Below, one piece after another: positions 5,479 to 53,076 of a DNA stretch of 64,000 bases. The stretch covers positions 3,392,001 through 3,456,000 of the forward strand of contig CM000151.3 of NCBI GenBank assembly GCA_000004695.1, given 5' to 3'. Made by a program: the position numbers and the translations under genes. Numbering within the stretch: position 1 is the first letter of the stretch; each line of letters begins with the position of its first letter. Source of the stretch: Dictyostelium discoideum (lineage: Eukaryota). Under the pieces are notes generated by a model. It was not told the origin of the DNA and did not search any database. It saw only the letters and a program-made list of their open reading frames with translations.

Positions 5479-8400
5479 AAAAGTTTTAAAAAAGATAAAA
5501 ATAAAATTAATACATTTAATATATTAAATGATATTAATGCATTTATTGAAGATGGTAAAATGTTATTAGTATTAGGTAGACCAGGTGCAGGTTGTTCAAC
5601 TTTATTAAGAGTAATTGCAAATCAACGTGAATCATATATTTCAGTTGATGGTGATGTAACATATGGTAATATTGCAGCAAGTGATTGGTCAAAATATAGA
5701 GGTGAAACTCTTTATACAGGTGAGGAAGATATTCATCATCCAACTCTAACAGTTCGTGAAACATTGGATTTTACATTAAAATTAAAGACACCAGGTAATC
5801 GTTTACCAGAAGAAAGTAAAAGAAATTTTAGAACTAAAATCTATGAATTATTAGTTAGTATGTATGGTTTAGTGAATCAAGGTGATACAATGGTTGGTAA
5901 TGAATTTGTTAGAGGTTTATCAGGTGGTGAAAGAAAAAGAATAACAATTACAGAGGCTATGGTTTCAGGTTCATCCATTACATGTTGGGATTGTTCAACC
6001 AGAGGTTTGGATGCAGCATCAGCCTATGATTATGCAAAATCCTTAAGAATCATGTCTGATACATTAGATAAAACTACAATTGCATCATTTTATCAAGCAT
6101 CAGATTCAATTTATAATTTATTCGATAAAGTTATTGTTTTAGATAAAGGTCGTTGTATTTATTTTGGTCCAATTGGTTTGGCAAAACAATACTTTTTAGA
6201 TTTAGGATTCGATTGTGAACCACGTAAATCAACTCCAGATTTTTTAACTGGTATTACAAATCCACAAGAACGTATTGTTAAAGTTGGGTTTGAAGGTAGA
6301 GTACCAGAGACTTCTGTCGATTTAGAAGATGCTTGGAAGAAATCACAATTATTCCAATCAATGAAACATGCTCAATTAGAATATGAAAAACAAGTTGAAC
6401 AACAAAAACCATCTGTTGATTTTAAAGAACAAGTATTGAATGAAAAAAGTAGAACAACTTCTAAAAACTCTGAATATAGTTCTAGTTTTTATGCTCAAAC
6501 AATTGCTTTAACTCAAAGACAATTAAGTTTAACTTGGGGTGATAAATTTACATTAACTTCACGTTTTCTAACTATTCTTGTATTATCATTTATTTTTGGT
6601 GGTATTTATTTCCAACAACCATTAACAACGGATGGTTTATTTACAAGAGGTGGTGCTATTTTCACTTCTATCATTTTCAATTGTATTTTAACTCAAGGGG
6701 AGCTCCACGGTGCTCTATCAGGTCGAAGGATCTTACAAAAACATAAAAGCTATGCTCTATATCGTCCTTCAGCTTATTTTGTTTCACAAATTCTAATTGA
6801 TATTCCATTTATATTGGTTCAAGTATTTTTACATTCATTCATAGTTTATTTCATGTATGGCTTTGAATATCGTGCTGATAAATTCTTTATATTTTGTTTC
6901 ACATTGGTTGGTGTATCATTATCAAGTGCTTCATTATTTAGAGGTTTTGCAAATTTTACTCCATCTTTATTTACTGCACAAAATTTAATGAATTTTGTTT
7001 TCATTTTTGAAGTAAATTATTTTGGTTATTCTCAAACTCCAGATAAAATGCATTCTTGGTTTAAATGGACTTATTATAGTAAGTTTTTTTTTTTAACTTC
7101 ACTTTATTTAAAATATATTTTAACTTTTTTTTTTTTTTTTTTTTTAATAATAGTTAATCCATTAGCATATGCATTTAAAAGTTTAATGATTAATGAATTT
7201 AAAGGTTTAGATTTTTCATGTTTAGATAGTGCTATTCCATTTGATCATTTTAATAATTCAACATATTCTGATATGTCACATAGAATTTGTGCAGTACCAG
7301 GTTCAATTGAAGGTTCTTTGTCTGTTAAAGGTGAAAATTATTTATGGGATGCATTACAAATTAATAGTGATCATAGAGCATTAAATGTTGTAGTAATTTT
7401 CTTATTTTGGTTATTTTATATTGGATTGAATTTATTCGCCGTTGAATATTTCGATTGGACAAGTGGTGGTTATACTCATAAAGTATATAAAAGAGGTAAA
7501 GCTCCAAAATTAAATGATGTTGAAGAAGAAAGAAATCAAAATCAAATCGTAAAGAAAGCAACTGATAATATGAAAGATACTTTAAAGATGAGAGGTGGTC
7601 TTTTCTCTTGGAAATCAATTTCTTATACTGTACCAGTAGCTGGAACAAATAAATTACTATTGGATGATATTATGGGTTGGATTAAACCTGGTCAAATGAC
7701 TGCTTTGATGGGTTCATCAGGTGCTGGTAAAACAACCCTACTCGATGTATTGGCAAAAAGAAAAACCATGGGTACTGTAACTGGTGAATCATTATTAAAT
7801 GGTAAGCAATTGGAAATTGATTTTGAACGTATCACTGGTTATGTTGAACAAATGGATGTTCATAATCCAGGTTTAACAGTTAGAGAGGCATTAAGATTCT
7901 CTGCAAAACTTCGTCAAGAACCATGGGTACCATTAAAAGATAAATATCAATATGTTGAACATGTTTTAGAAATGATGGAAATGAAACATTTAGGTGATGC
8001 TTTAATTGGTACTTTGGAAACTGGTGTTGGTATTTCAGTTGAAGAAAGAAAAAGATTAACAATTGGTGTTGAATTAGTTGCAAAACCACAAATTCTCTTC
8101 CTTGATGAACCTACATCAGGTTTGGATGCTCAATCATCATATAATATTATTAAATTCATTCGTAAATTAGCCGATGCGGGTATGCCATTGGTTTGTACAA
8201 TTCATCAACCATCATCAGTATTATTTGAACATTTCGATCGTATTCTTTTATTGGCTAGAGGTGGTAAAACTGTTTATTTCGGTGATATTGGTGATAAATC
8301 AAAAACTTTAACATCATACTTTGAACGTCATGGTGTTCGTCCATGTACTGAAAGTGAAAATCCAGCAGAATATATTTTAGAAGCAACTGGTGCAGGTATT

Positions 8401-9522
8401 CATGGTAAGACCGATGTTAATTGGCCAGAAGCTTGGAAACAATCATCAGAGTATCAAAATGTTGTCAATGAATTGGATCTTTTAAGAACAAAAGAAGAAT
8501 TGGGAAAATATATTTTAGATAGTGATTTGCAAGTCGATGGTAAGCAAGCACCACCAAGAGAATTTGCAAATGGTTTCCTAACTCAATTCATTGAGGTTTA
8601 CAAACGTTTAAATATCATTTATTATCGTGACGTTTTCTATACAATGGGTAGTTTTGCTCAAAGTGCTGTATCTGGTTTAGTAATTGGTTTCACTTTTTAT
8701 GATTTAAAAAATAGTTCATCCGATCAACAACAAAGAATCTTTATGAGTTGGGAAGCAATGATTCTTGGTGTATTATTGATTTATTTGGTTTTACCAATGT
8801 TTTTCATTCAAAAAGAATATTTCAAACGTGATACTGCTAGTAAATATTATTCATGGCATGCATTCTCCTTGTCTATGATTGCCGTTGAAATTCCATATGT
8901 AGTTTTATCAAGTACTTTGTTTTTCATTGCAACCTATTGGACCTCTGGTATTGATTCAACCGCTAGTGCAAACTTTTACTATTGGTTAATGCATACAATG
9001 TTTAGTGTTTATATTGTTTCATTTGCTCAAGCTTTAGGTGCTGCATGTGTTAATATCGCCATTTCAATCGCTGCTTTACCAATTGTTCTCTTTTATCTCT
9101 TTTTACTTTGTGGAGTTCAAATTCCACCACCAGCAATGAGTTCATTCTATCAAGATTGGTTATACCATTTAAACCCTGCTAAATATTTCTTGGAAGGTTT
9201 AATCACTACTGTATTAAAACCAATTGAAGTTTTATGTACTGATGTAGATTTAATTAAATTCACTGCTCCAAGTGGTACCGATTGTCAAACCTATTCTGCA
9301 CCATTCCTCCAACAAGCTACTGGTTATGTTGTTCCATTAAGTAATACTACAAACGAATGTGGTTATTGTATTTACAGTTCAGGTTCTGATTATTTCGAAA
9401 CAAGTTTAGGTTGGGATTATGGTCATCGTTGGAGAAATTTTGGAATTATTGTTGCTTATTGGGGTAGTTCAATTTTAGCAGTATTATTCTTTGTTTATCT
9501 CACTCAAAAACCAAGACGTTAA
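4905..9522 (+). CDS. ABC transporter, G family, full-size PDR-type (NBD-TMD-NBD-TMD), 3 exons.
   Basis: Exons about 4905..5371, 5484..7078 and 7154..9522. Intron 1 runs GTAAGT at 5372 to AG at 5483, phase 2. Intron 2 runs GTAAGT at 7079 to AG at 7153, is 75 nt, and restores the PDR motif WTYYINPLAYAF. Walker [10 protein letters not shown] and [12 protein letters not shown] signatures LSGGERKR and VEERKR, and two 6-TM blocks. Confidence 0.88.
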
Positions 9523-10430: not shown

Positions 10431-11471
10431 ATGAATCAAAATAAAAATAATAATAATAAAAATCCAAAAATTAATTTATTAATTATTGGATGTGGTTGTA
10501 TTGGTTTATCAACAGGTATTATTGCATTAAAGAGTGGTAATTATAAGAGTGTATCAATTTGGGCCAAAGATTTACCACCAAATACAACCTCAAATAAAGC
10601 AGCAGCATTATGGTATCCATTTTTATGTAATCCACTAGATTTAGTTGGTAAATGGTCAGCAGAAACCATGCAATATTATAAAGATCATATTATTAATGAC
10701 CCAAAATCAGGTACAATCACAAAGAAAGTAAATGAAATTTTCAGACGTCCACATCCAGAAGATCCAGAATGGAAACCATACATTAAATCATTTAGAAGAG
10801 CTAGAAAAGATGAACTACCAGATGGATATGTAGATGGTTATGCAATTGATGACGGTTTCGTTATGGACACTGATATGTATATGGATTATTTAGTCGACCA
10901 ATTCAAAAGTTTAGGTGGAATCATTGAACAAAGACACCTCGTTGATATTCGTGAAGCTTTTGTTGACCATGATGTAGTTGTAAATTGCACCGGTTTAGGA
11001 TCACGTGAATTATTCAATGATCGTACAATTTATCCAGGTCGTGGTCAAATTATCGTTATTAAAAACTCAACCGATCGTTCAATCATGGATGAAGAAGATC
11101 ATATCGCATATGTAATTCCACGTTTAACAAATACAGTTTTAGGTGGTACAAATCAAGAACACGATTACAATACAAATCCAACTAAAAAAGATACTGAAGA
11201 AATCTTAAAACGTGTAGCCATGATTTCACCACGTTTTGCTAAAAATAGAATTGAAATTCAAGGTGTTAAAGTTGGTCTACGTCCTGCTAGACATGAAATT
11301 CGTTTAGAAAATGAATTCTTTGAAGGTGGTTCAAAATTAGTAGTTCATAACTATGGTCATGGTGGTAGTGGTTTCACTGTAAGTTGGGGTTGTGCTATTG
11401 AAGCAATTAAATTAGTTGATCAAGGTTTACCAAAATTATTACATTTTAATAAATTAATAAGTAAATTATAA
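10431..11471 (+). CDS. FAD-dependent D-amino-acid oxidase / D-aspartate oxidase family (DAO), intronless.
   Basis: N-terminal Rossmann fold LLIIGCGCIGLSTG, and C-terminal HNYGHGGSGFTVSWGCA matching the DAAO HNYGHGGxG motif. Confidence 0.8.
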   Translation: MNQNKNNNNKNPKINLLIIGCGCIGLSTGIIALKSGNYKSVSIWAKDLPPNTTSNKAAALWYPFLCNPLDLVGKWSAETMQYYKDHIINDPKSGTITKKVNEIFRRPHPEDPEWKPYIKSFRRARKDELPDGYVDGYAIDDGFVMDTDMYMDYLVDQFKSLGGIIEQRHLVDIREAFVDHDVVVNCTGLGSRELFNDRTIYPGRGQIIVIKNSTDRSIMDEEDHIAYVIPRLTNTVLGGTNQEHDYNTNPTKKDTEEILKRVAMISPRFAKNRIEIQGVKVGLRPARHEIRLENEFFEGGSKLVVHNYGHGGSGFTVSWGCAIEAIKLVDQGLPKLLHFNKLISKL

Positions 11472-11659: not shown

Positions 11660-11940
11660 TAATTCTTAAACGATACTCATTTTTTCAAAAATTTCATCTA
11701 TTTTTAACTTTTTAAATTTTTTAACATTTTCAAATAATTGAACGTTACTCATTTTTTAAAAAATTGTGAGGTAACCATGGGATTTTTTCTCTCATTTTTT
11801 CAAAAATTTCATTTATTTTTAACTTTCTTAATTTTTTCTCATTTTCAAATAATTAAACGTTACTCATTTTTTAAAAGTTTGGGTGGTAACGTTGGGATTT
11901 TTTCTCTTATTTTTTCAAGTTTTATTTTAACAAATTCTTA
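11660..11940. repeat. Tandem repeat of a 115-120 bp unit, about 2.3 copies, of unknown function.
   Basis: Two near-identical units carrying tcattttttcaaaaatttcat.tatttttaacttt...caaataatt.aacgttactcattttttaaaa...ggtaac(ca/gt)tgggattttttctc. Sits between the DAAO gene and the next gene. No ORF with coding character. Confidence 0.6.
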
Positions 11941-12066: not shown

Positions 12067-12843
12067 ATGACAGCTGTTGACAATACTAATACTGGTTCAA
12101 TTCAATTTAATTCAAATTTTGTTTGTCCAAAGAATAGAAAAGAAATTGGTGAACTTATTGATCAATTTAAAAACTCATCTGATGGTGTTCCAAAAACCAG
12201 AGAAGAAATTAAGGAATATATTTCATTAATTAAGAAACAATATCGTGGAGATAAAAGAAAATTAAGACTTGAAAATAAAAGTCAATCTGGTAGTTCCAAA
12301 ACCACTGAACAAAGTGCTACAAATATAAATCCAATCCAAGTTCCTTCAGTTACTACAACCACCTCAACAAATGATAGTGATGAACAAAGTGTTACAACTA
12401 CAAATACTACAAATTCAAATCAAACCCAAAACCAAGTTCCTTCAGTTACCTCCACTACTACAACCACTTCAACAAATGACAGTGACGAGCAATGTGTCAC
12501 AACTACAAATACCACAAACTCAAGTCAAACTCAAATCCAAGCTCCTTCAGTTGCCTCCACCACTACTACAACTACTTCAACAAATAATGGTGATGATGTT
12601 AAAAAATCAATTAAAGAATTAAGAGAATTAATTAGAAAATTAAAAAAGTCATCTGAAACCCCAAAATCAAAAAAAGAAATTCGTTCAATTCAAAATCAAG
12701 AAAAATCACAAACATTAAATTATAATGAGTTTAAAAACACCAAAAGTGAAAATGTTCAAGTTGGACAAAATACTAAAAAACCATACTGTCATCATTATCG
12801 TAGAAATCGTTTAAATGATTGTAATACAAATTTAATTTCTTAA
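12067..12843 (+). CDS. Hypothetical Ser/Thr-rich protein with three roughly 40-aa tandem repeats (VPSVTTTTSTNDSDEQSVTTTNTTNS...).
   Basis: ORF with Dictyostelium codon usage and internal repeats at DNA and protein level. The stop at 12841-12843 is followed by 57 in-frame stop-free codons (see findings). Confidence 0.5.
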   Translation: MTAVDNTNTGSIQFNSNFVCPKNRKEIGELIDQFKNSSDGVPKTREEIKEYISLIKKQYRGDKRKLRLENKSQSGSSKTTEQSATNINPIQVPSVTTTTSTNDSDEQSVTTTNTTNSNQTQNQVPSVTSTTTTTSTNDSDEQCVTTTNTTNSSQTQIQAPSVASTTTTTTSTNNGDDVKKSIKELRELIRKLKKSSETPKSKKEIRSIQNQEKSQTLNYNEFKNTKSENVQVGQNTKKPYCHHYRRNRLNDCNTNLIS

Positions 12844-13129
12844 GTTGAAACCAATGTCAAACCAAAACTCCAAAATGAATCTGATCATAGTCAAGCTAGT
12901 TCACAAAAACTTGAAAAATTAAAATTTAAGAAAGAAATGTTATTAAGAAAAATTTCAATTGTTGAAAATAAAATTGAAACACTCAATAAATCTCAATCAA
13001 CCACAGTATCCCTCTAAACTATACAAAATCACCTCCTTTTATAATAAAATAAAATAAAATAAAAGTTATTAACTGTTTCTATTAAAATTATATTTTATTA
13101 TATTTTTTGTTGTACTATTAATTATTATT

Positions 13130-14719
13130 TTATAAATTTAAATTAATAAAATCAAGTTTATCTTGAAGTATTGCATTTGTAATTTCTCTAACATCAATAT
13201 CAGTTCTTCTATCATTTTCAAGTATTGGAATAATTTTTATAATTGAAGAATAAAGTTTTTGGACTTTATTTGGTAATTTAAAATTTTCAATAGATTTCAT
13301 TCTAAGACTAATGGCTTGAAAAGCTATGATTAAAGTCATTGAAACAATATCACATAGTTTAATTAACATTGATGCAGCACCATTTGCAGAGTGTAATCCT
13401 AAACTAACAATATCTTGATTAAACTGTTCAGTTGTTAAACTATGTATACAAGCAGGTGCGGCTTCTTGTCTTAACCAAACTACTAATGAAGTTTGAGAAA
13501 TTTGCATTCCTTTATAACCTTGATAAATTCCAGGATTTGGACTTAGGGAATTTGGTAAACCTTTAGAGAATTCACTATGCATCATTAAAGCAACTAATGA
13601 ATGTAAATGATTGGCAACCAAAGATATATCCAATTTAATACCATCCATTATTCTAGCAATATGATTACCCATAAAATTACCACCACTTAATACATCACCA
13701 TAATAAGGATCAATTAATGGATTATCATTAACTGATAAAATTTCTCTTTTTATTACAATTTTTGCATTACTTATATTTTCAGATATTATACCCAAAATTT
13801 GTGGAGCACAACGTAATGAATAAACTTCTTGTACTGATTTATCCAATTTCTGAACATTTTCAGATTGATTGAATGTAATATTACTGCTTTTGGTATTATT
13901 ATCGCTAGTATTAAAATATTTATTTAAAATTTGTGCAATTAAAATTTGACCTGGATGATTTTTTAAATTATGAATTCTCATATCGTAATGATCTTTTGAA
14001 GCTAATAAACCTTCAACTGCCAATGCGATACTACCAATTGCAGCTTTAAAAATAGTTTCAAATTTATTAATTGAAATACAACTAACTGAACTCATTACTC
14101 TTGTACCATTTACTAATGCCAAACCTTCTTTTGATTTTAAAACTAGTGGTTCAATAGATGTAATTTTTAAGGCATCTGAAGCATTCATTAATTTTTCATT
14201 ATACTTCACCATACCTTTTCCACATAGCACATTAGCAATATAACTCAAAGGTACTAAATCACCACTTGCCCCTACTGATCCATGCATTGGTACTTGTGGA
14301 ATTATACCTTTATTTAAATGTTTAGCCAATGTTTGAATTACCATTGGTCTAACACCTGACCAACCTCTTGAAAGTGCAATTATAATAATAAATTGTATAC
14401 CTCTAACATATTGATCATTAAAAAAATCACCAGTGCCACAAGTTAAAAAATCCAATAAATTACTTTGATGATAATCTAATTTATCAAATGGAATTATTAA
14501 ATCACCATTACCACCAAAACCAGTGTTTATACCATAAATTGCAACATTTTCTTTTAATTTATTTTCTAATTGATCTCTTCCTTTTTGTAAAAATTCTAAT
14601 AATTCATTAGTGAAAATAATATTTTTTTCACCTTTACTAATACTAATAATATCATTAATTTCTAAATTTTTATTTTCACCATCAATTAAAAAATTATCTT
14701 TATGGTTTGTTTCTATCAT
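13130..14719 (-). CDS. MIO-dependent aromatic amino-acid ammonia-lyase (HAL/PAL/TAL family), intronless, 529 aa.
   Basis: YGINTGFG, the GSVGASGDLVPLS Ala-Ser-Gly MIO triad, and downstream ALVNGT. Length and architecture match the bacterial-type HAL/PAL fold. The selectivity-switch position reads LLDFLTCGTG, i.e. Phe-Leu where true HALs have Ser-His. Confidence 0.85.
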   Translation of the reverse strand: MIETNHKDNFLIDGENKNLEINDIISISKGEKNIIFTNELLEFLQKGRDQLENKLKENVAIYGINTGFGGNGDLIIPFDKLDYHQSNLLDFLTCGTGDFFNDQYVRGIQFIIIIALSRGWSGVRPMVIQTLAKHLNKGIIPQVPMHGSVGASGDLVPLSYIANVLCGKGMVKYNEKLMNASDALKITSIEPLVLKSKEGLALVNGTRVMSSVSCISINKFETIFKAAIGSIALAVEGLLASKDHYDMRIHNLKNHPGQILIAQILNKYFNTSDNNTKSSNITFNQSENVQKLDKSVQEVYSLRCAPQILGIISENISNAKIVIKREILSVNDNPLIDPYYGDVLSGGNFMGNHIARIMDGIKLDISLVANHLHSLVALMMHSEFSKGLPNSLSPNPGIYQGYKGMQISQTSLVVWLRQEAAPACIHSLTTEQFNQDIVSLGLHSANGAASMLIKLCDIVSMTLIIAFQAISLRMKSIENFKLPNKVQKLYSSIIKIIPILENDRRTDIDVREITNAILQDKLDFINLNL

Positions 14720-51305: not shown

Positions 51306-51623
51306 ATGGGATCAGTTGAAAGTTCAAATCAAATGAATGGATCCATTGAAAATAAAACAAATAAGATTGATATTAGTGTATTGAGACCATTACCAACTAG
51401 AAGCAATAGCTCAATATCATTAAGTTCCTCTTCTCATAGTTCATTCAGTAGAATGGGATCACTAGGTTCATTACCAACAAATTCTGGTTCTTCTTCACCC
51501 TATTACAATAATAGTTCATTTGATCTTGTTGATGAAGAAAGAATTAAATCTTCAATTTATAATTTAAAAAATCATATTAAATGTATTCATAAAATTAAAG
51601 AAGAATTTAGAGTAAGTTTTAAT

Positions 51624-51659
<36 letters not shown>

Positions 51660-53076
51660 AAAACAAAAATGACTTACTTTTATTTATTTTTTATTTTTAT
51701 TTTCATTTTTTTTAAAAAAAAAAAAAATAGTTATTGGAAGAATCTGTTGGACCAAGTGAAACCAGTGAAGGTGATAAAAAACATAACACATCAAAGAATA
51801 GATATACTAATATTTTACCAGTTAATCATACAAGAGTACAATTAAAAAAGATTCAAGATAAAGAAGGTTCAGATTATATTAATGCTAATTATATTGATGT
51901 AAGTATATATTTAATTAATTTTTTTTAATAATATAATTCTAATTTTTTTCTTATTTTTTATTTTTTATTAATAATAAAAAGGGAGCATACCCAAAACAAT
52001 TTATTTGTACACAAGGACCATTACCAAATACAATTGCTGATTTTTGGAGAATGGTATGGGAAAATCGATGTCGTATTATTGTTATGCTTTCAAGAGAGTC
52101 TGAAAACTGTAGAATAAAATGTGATAGATATTGGCCAGAACAAATTGGAGGTGAACAATTTTCAATATATGGTAATGGTAATGAAGTATTTGGCACATAC
52201 AGTGTCGAATTGGTTGAGGTTATCCAAGATCCAGAGAGAGAGATAATCACAAGAAACATTAGACTTACATTTGAGGGTGAGACAAGAGATATCACTCAAT
52301 ATCAATATGAAGGTTGGCCAGATCATAACATCCCAGATCACACTCAACCATTCCGTCAGTTGTTACATAGTATCACAAATCGTCAAAATCAAATCATACC
52401 ATCATCAGATAGAAATGTTCCAATCATCGTTCATTGTAGTGCAGGAGTTGGTAGAACCGGCACCTTTTGTACAGCCGTCATTATGATGAAAAAGTTGGAC
52501 CATTACTTTAAACAATTGGATGCTACTCCAATTGATCAAGTCGTTGATCCTTTCACTCATTTACCAATCACTGAATATCAAAGTGATAATTTAGATTTAA
52601 AAGGACTTGGTTATCATTTTAAATCTTCAATTTATAATAGTAATGGTATAAATAATAATAATAATAATAATTTAAATAATAATAATAATATTAATAATAA
52701 TTCAAATGGTTCAAATAATACGCCACAAACTGAACCAAATAATGAGGAAGATGATGATGACGCAGCAGAATCTGACTTAAAATATGCAATAATGGATAAA
52801 TATAATAGTAGAATCGATTTTAATTTATTTTCAATAGTTTTGAAACTTAGAGAGCAACGTCCTGGAATGGTTCAACAATTAGAACAATATCTATTTTGTT
52901 ATAAAACAATTTTAGACGAAATTTATCATAGATTAAATTGTAAATTAGGTTTTTCTTTACCACATGTTAATAATATCAATAATTATAATAATTATAGTAA
53001 TACTACTACCACCACTACTTCTTCTTTAGCCTCAACTACAATAATTCATCCATCTACAAATAGTAAATTAAATTAA
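51306..53076 (+). CDS. ptpA: Non-receptor protein tyrosine phosphatase, 522 aa, 3 exons, with an Asn-rich insert in the catalytic domain; probably PTP1.
   Basis: Exons 51306..51611, 51731..51898 and 51982..53076, all phase 0, with GTAAGT donors. PTP motifs [32 protein letters not shown]-loop WPDHNIPD, and catalytic [11 protein letters not shown]. The spliced length of 522 aa equals the published size of Dictyostelium PTP1, which is why I give the symbol, with moderate certainty. Confidence 0.75.

What the first reader, a model, noticed from the sequence alone, without database searches (positions are those of the whole stretch)
12838..13017. Stop codon followed by 57 in-frame, stop-free, coding-like codons (readthrough, error or pseudogenisation)
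The Ser/Thr-repeat gene ends at TAA at 12841-12843. The same frame then continues for 57 codons (VETNVKPKLQNESDHSQASSQKLEKLKFKKEMLLRKISIVENKIETLNKSQSTTVSL) before the next stop. Codon usage there is typical Dictyostelium coding (CCA, CAA, GAA, TCA) and the peptide has a coiled-coil-like heptad pattern. In a genome of roughly 78% AT a 171-nt stop-free run by chance is very unlikely. Possible explanations are a sequencing or assembly error at the TAA, programmed stop-codon readthrough, or a recent nonsense mutation.
Basis: seen in the sequence. Interest (0 to 1): 0.55.

Follow-up and report, generated by a model that had tools for sequence, protein, structure and literature searches.

The report
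Nonsense mutation hidden by fake intron
A small, fast-evolving Dictyostelium discoideum gene carries a real premature stop codon (CAA changed to TAA) that cuts off a conserved C-terminal helix. The public gene model hides this stop behind an implausible 24-base "intron", so this is an ordinary truncation plus an annotation artefact, not recoding.

Summary
ORF 12067-12843 ends at TAA 12841-12843, and the same frame stays open for 57 codons to TAA 13015-13017. That is about a 0.7% chance event given the region's own base composition.

The stretch is not a chance ORF. It is homologous to the C-terminus of five intronless, syntenic orthologues: two D. cf. discoideum, two D. citrinum and one D. dimigraforme. 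These orthologues carry CAA or GAA exactly where D. discoideum has TAA. The stop is therefore a single C>T nonsense change on the D. discoideum branch.

An independent D. discoideum assembly (GCA_054883475.1) has the same TAA, which makes a sequencing error unlikely.

The public 308-aa protein (KAM9952195.1 = UniParc UPI00004E2BA7) is reproduced exactly by deleting 12821-12844. That is a 24-nt GT..AG "intron" which removes the stop. It is far below real Dictyostelium intron sizes and is translated in every orthologue, so it is most likely an annotation patch.

Readthrough is disfavoured. The stop is UAA followed by G, there is no downstream RNA structure, and the stop is not conserved.

The lost tail contains the protein's best-predicted helix, which has a heptad pattern. 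How old the mutation is, and whether it is confined to the NC4/AX4 laboratory lineage, cannot be settled with these tools. Low interest.

The parts
12067..12843 (+). Present-day ORF of the orphan gene: 258 codons plus TAA. It contains an N-terminal helical hairpin, S/T-rich repeats and a His/Arg-rich stretch.
   Evidence: ORF list and translation. Orthologous to P0002-P0006 along its whole length. Synteny DAO - gene - HAL - DyP is conserved in L002-L005.
12841..12843 (+). Premature stop TAA. The orthologous codon is CAA (Gln) in both D. cf. discoideum and GAA (Glu) in D. citrinum (two assemblies) and D. dimigraforme. The next base is G.
   Evidence: Codon alignment. Polarised as CAA>TAA on the D. 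discoideum branch. The same base is present in the independent assembly GCA_054883475.1.
12844..13014 (+). Relic C-terminal coding region of 57 codons, now nominally 3' UTR.
   Evidence: Aligns without gaps to the last 57 codons of L002 (92.4% nt identity, 0 indels). It holds 18 of the protein's invariant columns. Pairwise dN/dS is 0.28-0.38 against the two closest species.
12895..12993 (+). Segment encoding the amphipathic C-terminal helix with a heptad pattern (ASSQKLEKLKFKKEMLLRKISIVENKIETLNKS).
   Evidence: AlphaFold2 on the intact orthologue P0002 gives helix 267-299 with pLDDT 88-93, mapped here through the alignment. The heptad register has 7 of 8 hydrophobic a/d positions.
13015..13017 (+). 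Ancestral stop codon TAA, shared in position with all orthologues.
12821..12844 (+). 24-nt GT..AG 'intron' of the public gene model (GTAATACAAATTTAATTTCTTAAG). Judged to be an annotation patch, not a real intron.
   Evidence: Deleting it reproduces P0001 (308 aa) exactly. The gene span in L001 is 951 nt = 927 + 24. The same 24 nt are translated in all five orthologue models.
12351..12585 (+). 105-nt coding tandem repeat (2.2 copies) inside the gene. It encodes the S/T-rich repeats, and its copy number varies between species.
   Evidence: Tandem Repeats Finder; protein alignment.
13043..13064 (+). (AATAA)x4.4, containing AATAAA motifs, about 30 nt after the ancestral stop. A likely poly(A) signal region placed relative to the second stop, not the first.
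   Evidence: GC falls to 7% just after this point. Its function as a poly(A) signal is inferred, not tested.

Best explanation
A single C>T transition on the D. discoideum branch turned a Gln codon (CAA) into TAA at 12841-12843. The gene is an intronless, fast-evolving orphan restricted to the D. discoideum / D. citrinum / D. dimigraforme clade.

Translation now most likely stops there and yields a 258-aa protein without the last 57 residues. In the orthologues those residues form a conserved amphipathic, heptad-patterned helix, plausibly an oligomerisation module. The 57 codons are a still-intact relic of the ancestral C-terminus and are now carried in the 3' UTR. The ancestral stop (13015-13017), the AATAAA-rich tract and the drop in GC all still sit where the old ORF ended.

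The public 308-aa protein model restores the tail only by declaring 12821-12844 an intron. That is the shortest in-frame GT..AG bypass of the stop and is an annotation device, not biology.

Shown: the stop, its orthologous sense codons, homology of the tail, a second assembly with the same base, and the exact origin of the 308-aa model.

Inferred: that termination is efficient, that the tail is not expressed, and that the helix mediates oligomerisation. The age of the mutation is open, from a laboratory-lineage event to most of the species branch.
For: - Codon alignment: TAA in D. discoideum aligns with CAA, CAA, GAA, GAA, GAA in the orthologues.
- All five orthologues are single-exon ORFs that translate straight through, in conserved synteny.
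- The tail is the best conserved block of the alignment and aligns to L002 with 92.4% identity and no indels.
- The window and GCA_054883475.1 show 0 substitutions over 7 kb and differ only in six intergenic A/T homopolymer lengths. They are therefore separate assemblies agreeing on TAA.
- Removing 12821-12844 gives P0001 exactly. P0001 carries an old UniParc identifier, UPI00004E2BA7.
- D. discoideum gene models are documented to contain artificial tiny introns built around TAA codons or frameshifts (PMC5282741).
- D. discoideum introns have median 104 bp and mean 133-146 bp (PMC4683709; PMC3188802). The clearest introns in this window are 82-151 nt, GC 5-15%, with GTAAGT donors (heuristic scan).
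- The shortest transcript-validated GT-AG intron in NCBI Gene is 30 bp (PMC4675715).
- UAA is the least leaky stop, and a G at the next position lowers readthrough further (PMC7783166).
- The 258-aa product is absent from the protein collection, and only the patched 308-aa form is present.
Against: - No transcript, ribosome-profiling or peptide data could be consulted, so expression of the tail by any route is not excluded.
- The second assembly shows no substitutions against the window and may be the same laboratory lineage. It excludes a read error, but not a strain-specific mutation that is absent from the species at large.
- The extension shows dN/dS of about 0.3-0.4 and no indels. This could also mean continuing constraint.
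- The counts are too small to decide: 8 changes on the D. discoideum branch against 3 on the L002 branch.
- An intact frame is expected with P about 0.5-0.6 even under neutrality.
Confidence: 0.8

Rival explanations
1. Genuine ultra-short (24-nt) spliceosomal intron. The stop-containing segment 12821-12844 is spliced out, as the public model says, so that D. discoideum still makes a 308-aa protein with the C-terminal helix. This would be 'intronisation' of a segment carrying a premature stop.
For: GT..AG borders exist and the length is 3n, so splicing would restore the conserved tail exactly as in P0001. The tail is intact and conserved. The model has persisted in public databases.
Against: - 24 nt is far below D. 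discoideum intron sizes (median 104 bp) and below the shortest validated GT-AG intron in NCBI Gene (30 bp). Canonical splicing is described as needing a branch point more than 18 nt upstream of the 3' site (PMC5282741).
- The donor is GTAATA, not GTAAGT, and GC is 17% against 5-13% in clear local introns.
- 30 different in-frame GT..AG bypasses of the stop exist between 12600 and 13015, so such borders arise by chance. This one is simply the shortest.
- All five orthologues translate the same 24 nt, and L003 even has the same GT and AG borders there while coding through them.
- Artificial introns that hide TAA codons are documented in this annotation.
Confidence: 0.04
2. Programmed or appreciable stop-codon readthrough of the TAA. 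This would yield a 316-aa protein alongside the 258-aa form and keep the tail under selection.
For: The extension is in frame, stop-free, conserved, and shows pairwise dN/dS of 0.28-0.38.
Against: - The stop is UAA followed by G, the least leaky codon in a context reported to reduce readthrough (PMC7783166).
- No stable RNA structure lies downstream: minimum free energy -9.3 kcal/mol, z = +0.38 against shuffles.
- The hallmark of evolved readthrough is a conserved stop with a conserved extension. Here the relatives have sense codons instead.
- The tail's conservation is fully explained by recent descent from an ordinary ORF.
- No natural readthrough genes in Dictyostelium turned up in the literature search. 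It is only raised as a possibility (PMC11537047).
Confidence: 0.05
3. Sequencing or assembly error: the true base at 12841 is C and the gene is intact.
For: Errors of exactly this kind exist in the AX4 reference. One example is TAA in the genome against TTA in 100% of RNA-seq reads for DDB_G0279477, masked by 3-bp introns (PMC5282741).
Against: A second assembly (GCA_054883475.1) carries the same TAA. Its contig length differs, and it differs from the window in six homopolymer runs, so it was not copied from the window sequence. The site is not in a homopolymer or repeat.
Confidence: 0.03
4. Whole-gene decay: the nonsense mutation is one symptom of a gene that is no longer functional in D. discoideum at all (a unitary pseudogene), rather than a truncated but working protein.
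For: - On the D. discoideum branch, the upstream non-repeat regions show 14 non-synonymous changes to 1 synonymous. One of them is E>G at an otherwise invariant position, in YREDKRK.
- Pairwise dN/dS against the closest species is 1.3-1.6 upstream.
- The lost tail is one of only two confidently structured parts of the protein.
Against: - The sister branch (L002), which has an intact gene, shows a similar pattern of 15 non-synonymous to 5 synonymous changes and a similar total, 20 against 15. A high dN/dS is therefore a property of the family.
- There are no frameshifts or further stops in 258 + 57 codons.
- The start codon and A-rich leader are intact.
Confidence: 0.25

Closest known systems
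Artificial micro-introns in dictyBase / AX4 gene models that mask in-frame stops or frameshifts (Singh et al. 2017, PMC5282741)
   Same: A gene model keeps a long ORF by declaring a tiny, frame-preserving segment that contains TAA to be an intron. The segment is too short for canonical splicing.
   Different: The documented set comprises introns under 5 bp, and in the worked example the TAA was a genome error contradicted by RNA-seq. Here the 'intron' is 24 nt with GT..AG borders, so it looks legitimate. The TAA is also confirmed by a second assembly, so the underlying lesion appears real.
Lineage-specific nonsense truncation or young unitary pseudogene
   Same: There is a one-step sense-to-stop change relative to intact syntenic orthologues. 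The downstream frame is still open and homologous to the orthologous C-terminus.
   Different: Only the last 18% of the protein is lost, and the remaining 258 codons are intact. The gene may therefore still be functional. Neither loss of function nor fixation in the species has been shown.
Programmed stop-codon readthrough extensions (for example UGA-CUAG or UAG-CARYYA contexts in animals, fungi and viruses; from general knowledge)
   Same: An in-frame, stop-free, protein-like extension follows a stop codon.
   Different: The stop is UAA-G, there is no stimulatory context or structure, and the stop is not conserved in relatives, which carry sense codons.
Ultra-short spliceosomal introns (Paramecium about 25 nt, Bigelowiella nucleomorph 18-21 nt; PMC5014332 abstract, PMC1950532)
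   Same: Similar length (24 nt), GT..AG borders, and an in-frame stop inside a 3n segment.
   Different: Those organisms have genome-wide populations of such introns and adapted spliceosomes. Dictyostelium introns have a median of about 104 bp, and no such class is known there.

Membership tests
Nonsense-truncated orthologue (premature stop on one lineage) | Orthologous position is a sense codon in related species, one mutational step from the stop | tested here: met
   TAA against CAA (two species) and GAA (three assemblies) in the codon alignment. Polarised to the D. discoideum branch.
Nonsense-truncated orthologue (premature stop on one lineage) | Sequence after the stop is homologous, in frame, to the orthologues' C-terminus and ends at the shared ancestral stop | tested here: met
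   57 of 57 codons align to L002 without gaps, and the final stop is shared.
Nonsense-truncated orthologue (premature stop on one lineage) | Stop is real, not a read or assembly error | tested here: met
   Same base in GCA_054883475.1, which differs from the window at six homopolymer runs. Raw reads were not available.
Nonsense-truncated orthologue (premature stop on one lineage) | Status within the species (fixed, polymorphic or laboratory-lineage only) | not testable with these tools
   No wild-isolate sequences could be reached. The protein cluster of P0001 has one member, and a metagenome scan for the site found nothing.
Programmed stop-codon readthrough | Leaky stop codon and a stimulatory 3' context | tested here: not met
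   UAA followed by G. This is reported as the least leaky codon with a readthrough-reducing next base (PMC7783166).
Programmed stop-codon readthrough | Stop codon itself conserved across relatives together with a coding-like extension | tested here: not met
   All five relatives have sense codons at the site.
Programmed stop-codon readthrough | Stimulatory RNA structure downstream | tested here: not met
   Minimum free energy -9.3 kcal/mol, z = +0.38; 130 of 200 shuffles fold at least as well.
Programmed stop-codon readthrough | Ribosome footprints or peptides beyond the stop | not testable with these tools
   No ribosome-profiling or proteomic data were accessible.
Spliceosomal intron of D. 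discoideum | GT..AG borders | tested here: met
   GT at 12821-12822 and AG at 12843-12844. However, 30 alternative in-frame GT..AG bypasses exist nearby, so this is weak evidence.
Spliceosomal intron of D. discoideum | Length within the spliceable range of the organism | tested here: not met
   24 nt against a median of 104 bp (PMC4683709) and clear local introns of 82-151 nt. The shortest validated GT-AG intron in NCBI Gene is 30 bp.
Spliceosomal intron of D. discoideum | Consensus donor (GTAAGT-like) and an AT-rich interior poorer in GC than the exons | tested here: not met
   Donor is GTAATA. GC is 17% against 5-13% for clear local introns and about 25% for the flanking exon. The local intron set comes from a heuristic scan.
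Spliceosomal intron of D. discoideum | Intron position shared with close orthologues, or the segment not translated there | tested here: not met
   All five orthologue genes are single-exon and translate the homologous 24 nt.
Spliceosomal intron of D. discoideum | Spliced transcripts observed | not testable with these tools
   No EST or RNA-seq data were accessible.
Artificial stop-masking intron in a gene model | Removing the annotated intron's bases reproduces the database protein, and the segment contains the in-frame stop and is a multiple of three | tested here: met
   Window minus 12821-12844 translates to P0001 exactly. The segment is 24 nt and contains TAA. The precedent is in PMC5282741.

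The most novel reading that the evidence does not exclude
D. discoideum still makes the full-length protein despite the TAA. It would do so either by splicing a 24-nt micro-intron that arose when a nonsense mutation fell between chance GT and AG dinucleotides (intronisation of a stop-bearing exon segment), or by efficient readthrough of UAA-G. The first would be the shortest spliceosomal intron known in Amoebozoa and a caught-in-the-act example of intron birth.
Probability: 0.07. Interest if true: 0.7.

Novelty: new member of a known kind. Interest (0 to 1): 0.15.

Why it matters
The main value is as a correction. The 308-aa protein in public databases (KAM9952195.1 / UPI00004E2BA7) contains a junction (..LND-F-ETNV..) that probably never exists in the cell. 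The likely product is a 258-aa protein lacking the family's conserved C-terminal helix.

This adds a longer, GT..AG-disguised case to the known class of stop-masking pseudo-introns in Dictyostelium gene models. Filters that only remove introns under 5 bp would miss it.

Biologically it is a small example of how a young, weakly constrained orphan gene loses a structural module. If the stop proves specific to the NC4/AX3/AX4 laboratory lineage, it would be one more hidden difference between the model strain and wild D. discoideum.

Tried and rejected
- Exact look-up of the 258-aa product: not on record.
- Pfam scan of three family members: nothing above threshold.
- Profile search of 1.84 billion representatives: only the same family, so no wider homologues and no functional assignment.
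- Metagenome scan for the site with N at the variable base: no match, so no population information.
- Dating the mutation by dN/dS and polarised substitutions. Counts are too small: 8 against 3 changes in the tail, and 15 against 20 upstream. The family evolves near neutrality at this distance (dN/dS 0.4-1.6 against 0.04 for the neighbouring DAO gene). No conclusion.
- Using ORF intactness as a clock. It is uninformative, because P(no new stop) is about 0.5-0.6 after 8 neutral substitutions.
- Search for a longer, plausible intron that bypasses the stop: 30 in-frame GT..AG options, none with a GTAAGT-type donor and all lying in coding-like sequence.
- RNA structure after the stop: none.
- tRNA scan of the window for a suppressor tRNA: no tRNA genes.
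- Minus-strand gene overlapping the region: no ORF of 40 aa or more, and 3-6 stops in each minus frame.
- Literature. No paper describing the new dictyostelid assemblies was found. The 2005 genome paper is not held. The idea that nitrosoguanidine mutagenesis of Ax3 caused this G:C>A:T change rests on my own recollection and was not confirmed. One search confirms only that Ax4 descends from NC4 via Ax3.

Full report
**Observation**

The window is Dictyostelium discoideum DNA. The gene order is ABC-G transporter, D-amino-acid-oxidase-like gene (10431-11471), the target gene, histidine ammonia-lyase on the minus strand (13130-14719) and DyP peroxidase.

The target ORF starts at ATG 12067 behind a long A-run and ends at TAA 12841-12843, giving 258 aa. 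The same frame continues for 57 sense codons (12844-13014) to TAA 13015-13017.

This is more than chance:
- Only 0.66% of composition-preserving shuffles of the 171 nt are stop-free in frame, and the other five frames hold 2-11 stops each.
- Among 26 long open stretches in the window, the median post-stop open run is about 5 codons. The one longer case, after 51632, simply crosses a normal GTAAGT...AATAG intron.
- GC stays at coding level (18-28%) until about 13050 and then collapses to 7%.
- An (AATAA)n tract with AATAAA motifs lies about 30 nt after the second stop, not the first.

**What the public record says**

The 258-aa product is not in the protein collection. A search with the read-through concatenate found six proteins.

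The D. discoideum entry P0001 is 308 aa (KAM9952195.1). It is also held under the old UniParc identifier UPI00004E2BA7, which I take to be the original AX4 model. Its gene spans 951 nt for 927 coding nt.

Deleting window bases 12821-12844 (GTAATACAAATTTAATTTCTTAAG) reproduces P0001 residue for residue, with the junction ..LND-F-ETNV... The public model therefore bypasses the stop with a 24-nt GT..AG intron.

**Orthologues**

Five relatives were fetched with their loci: two D. cf. discoideum (L002, L003), two D. citrinum (L004, L005) and one D. dimigraforme (L006). All are single-exon ORFs that translate directly. L002-L005 keep the DAO - gene - HAL - DyP synteny.

In the codon alignment, the D. 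discoideum TAA lines up with CAA in L002 and L003, and with GAA in L004, L005 and L006. The eight codons of the supposed intron are ordinary coding sequence in all of them, for example ..ND RKTNLIFQ VETNVKP.. in L002. L003 even has GT and AG at the same borders while coding straight through.

The 57-codon tail is the best conserved block of the family, KLEKLKxKKEMLLRKxSIVENKIETLNKSQSTTVxL. It aligns to L002 at 92.4% identity with no indel. The 112-nt 3' intergenic spacer that follows is 89% identical with many indels.

The stop is thus a one-step C>T nonsense change on the D. discoideum branch.

**Is the TAA real?**

The locus from GCA_054883475.1 (L001) matches the window with 0 substitutions over 7 kb. 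It differs at six intergenic A/T homopolymer runs, and its contig length is its own. I read this as an independent assembly of the same or a very close strain, and it has the same TAA.

The site is not in a repeat. A read error is therefore unlikely, although errors of this type are documented in the AX4 reference (PMC5282741).

**Is the 24-nt intron real?**

Several lines argue against it:
- D. discoideum introns have a median of 104 bp and a mean of 133-146 bp (PMC4683709; PMC3188802).
- The clearest introns I could delimit in this window are 82-151 nt, GC 5-15%, with GTAAGT donors (heuristic scan).
- The shortest transcript-validated GT-AG intron in NCBI Gene is 30 bp (PMC4675715).
- Singh et al. 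note that canonical splicing needs a branch point more than 18 nt upstream of the 3' site.
- The candidate has a GTAATA donor and 17% GC. It is merely the shortest of 30 possible in-frame GT..AG bypasses of the stop.
- Singh et al. also documented 119 artificial introns under 5 bp in 102 D. discoideum gene models, some built around TAA codons.

The present case is the same device in a form that looks legitimate. I rate a real micro-intron at about 4%.

**Readthrough?**

The stop is UAA followed by G. UAA is the least leaky stop, and a G at the next position lowers readthrough further (PMC7783166). The 120 nt downstream fold no better than shuffles (z = +0.38). The signature of evolved readthrough, a conserved stop with a conserved extension, is absent because relatives have sense codons. 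No tRNA gene lies in the window. I rate functional readthrough at about 5%.

**Age and consequence**

The neighbouring DAO gene gives dS = 0.094 and dN/dS = 0.04 between D. discoideum and L002. The target gene is a weakly constrained orphan:
- Pairwise dN/dS is 0.45-0.93 upstream of the stop and 0.28-0.38 in the tail for the two closest species.
- No Pfam domain is found.
- No relatives beyond this clade appear among 1.84 billion representatives.

Polarised changes in the tail are 8 on the D. discoideum branch (3 synonymous, 5 non-synonymous) against 3 on the L002 branch. In upstream non-repeat regions they are 15 against 20. The excess in the tail hints at relaxation but is not significant. 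The 8/171 rate equals the neutral expectation of about half of 0.094.

After 8 neutral substitutions, the chance of no new stop is still about 0.5-0.6. The intact frame therefore does not prove that the mutation is recent. It could date from the laboratory history of NC4 > Ax3 > Ax4 (lineage described in PMC2643946) or from much of the species branch.

AlphaFold2 on the intact orthologue P0002 gives low overall confidence (mean pLDDT 53). Only two parts are confident: an N-terminal helical hairpin (about residues 20-75) and a C-terminal helix at 267-299 with pLDDT 88-93. That helix lies wholly within the lost tail (window 12895-12993). It has a clean heptad register with L,L,K,L,I,V,I,L at the a/d positions. 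I infer that the truncation removes a probable oligomerisation helix. Whether the 258-aa remainder still works is unknown, and I give about 25% to the whole gene being dead in D. discoideum.

**Verdict**

The best explanation (confidence about 0.8) is a genuine lineage-specific nonsense mutation, with its relic C-terminal ORF masked in the public annotation by a non-biological 24-nt intron.

This is a new instance of known kinds: a premature stop and a stop-masking pseudo-intron. Its main value is as an annotation correction. The only exciting reading left open is a real 24-nt intron or efficient UAA readthrough. It can be tested directly with existing RNA-seq data, and I give it about 7%.

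Noticed in passing
window 11676-11918: A 115-nt unit repeated 2.1 times in tandem (89% identity) lies in the intergenic region upstream of the target gene. Both copies are also present in D. cf. discoideum (L002), and the unit occurs nowhere else in the window. Its function is unknown; it could be a promoter or regulatory duplication.
   Followed up: partly
window 12351-12585: A 105-nt (35-codon) coding tandem repeat encodes the S/T-rich middle of the protein. Copy number differs between species: absent in D. citrinum and D. dimigraforme, 2.2 copies here, more in L003.
   Followed up: partly
window 51612-51731: The only longer post-stop open run in the window (70 codons after TAA at 51630-51632) is an ordinary GTAAGT...AATAG intron of about 120 nt that happens to stay open in frame. 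It serves as a local example of what a real intron looks like.
   Followed up: yes
window 5560-9522 (around 7079-7229): The long ABC-G transporter ORF reads straight through an AT-rich, Phe-rich patch (..[24 protein letters not shown]..). This looks like an in-frame, stop-free intron (GTAAGT donor at 7079). The mechanical ORF probably contains an unspliced intron.
   Followed up: no
window 9998, 10063, 10322, 11940, 14905, 15009: All six differences between the window and assembly GCA_054883475.1 over 7 kb are length differences in intergenic A/T homopolymer runs. There are no substitutions at all.
   Followed up: yes
L002 4199-5617: The histidine ammonia-lyase orthologue in D. cf. discoideum is annotated as 423 aa, against 529-536 aa in D. 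discoideum and other relatives. This may be a gene-model problem or a truncation there.
   Followed up: no
window 12247-12249 (residue 61 of the target protein): D. discoideum has Gly in the motif YR-G-DKRK, where all five orthologues have Glu. This is a lineage-specific change at an otherwise invariant position of the N-terminal helical domain.
   Followed up: no
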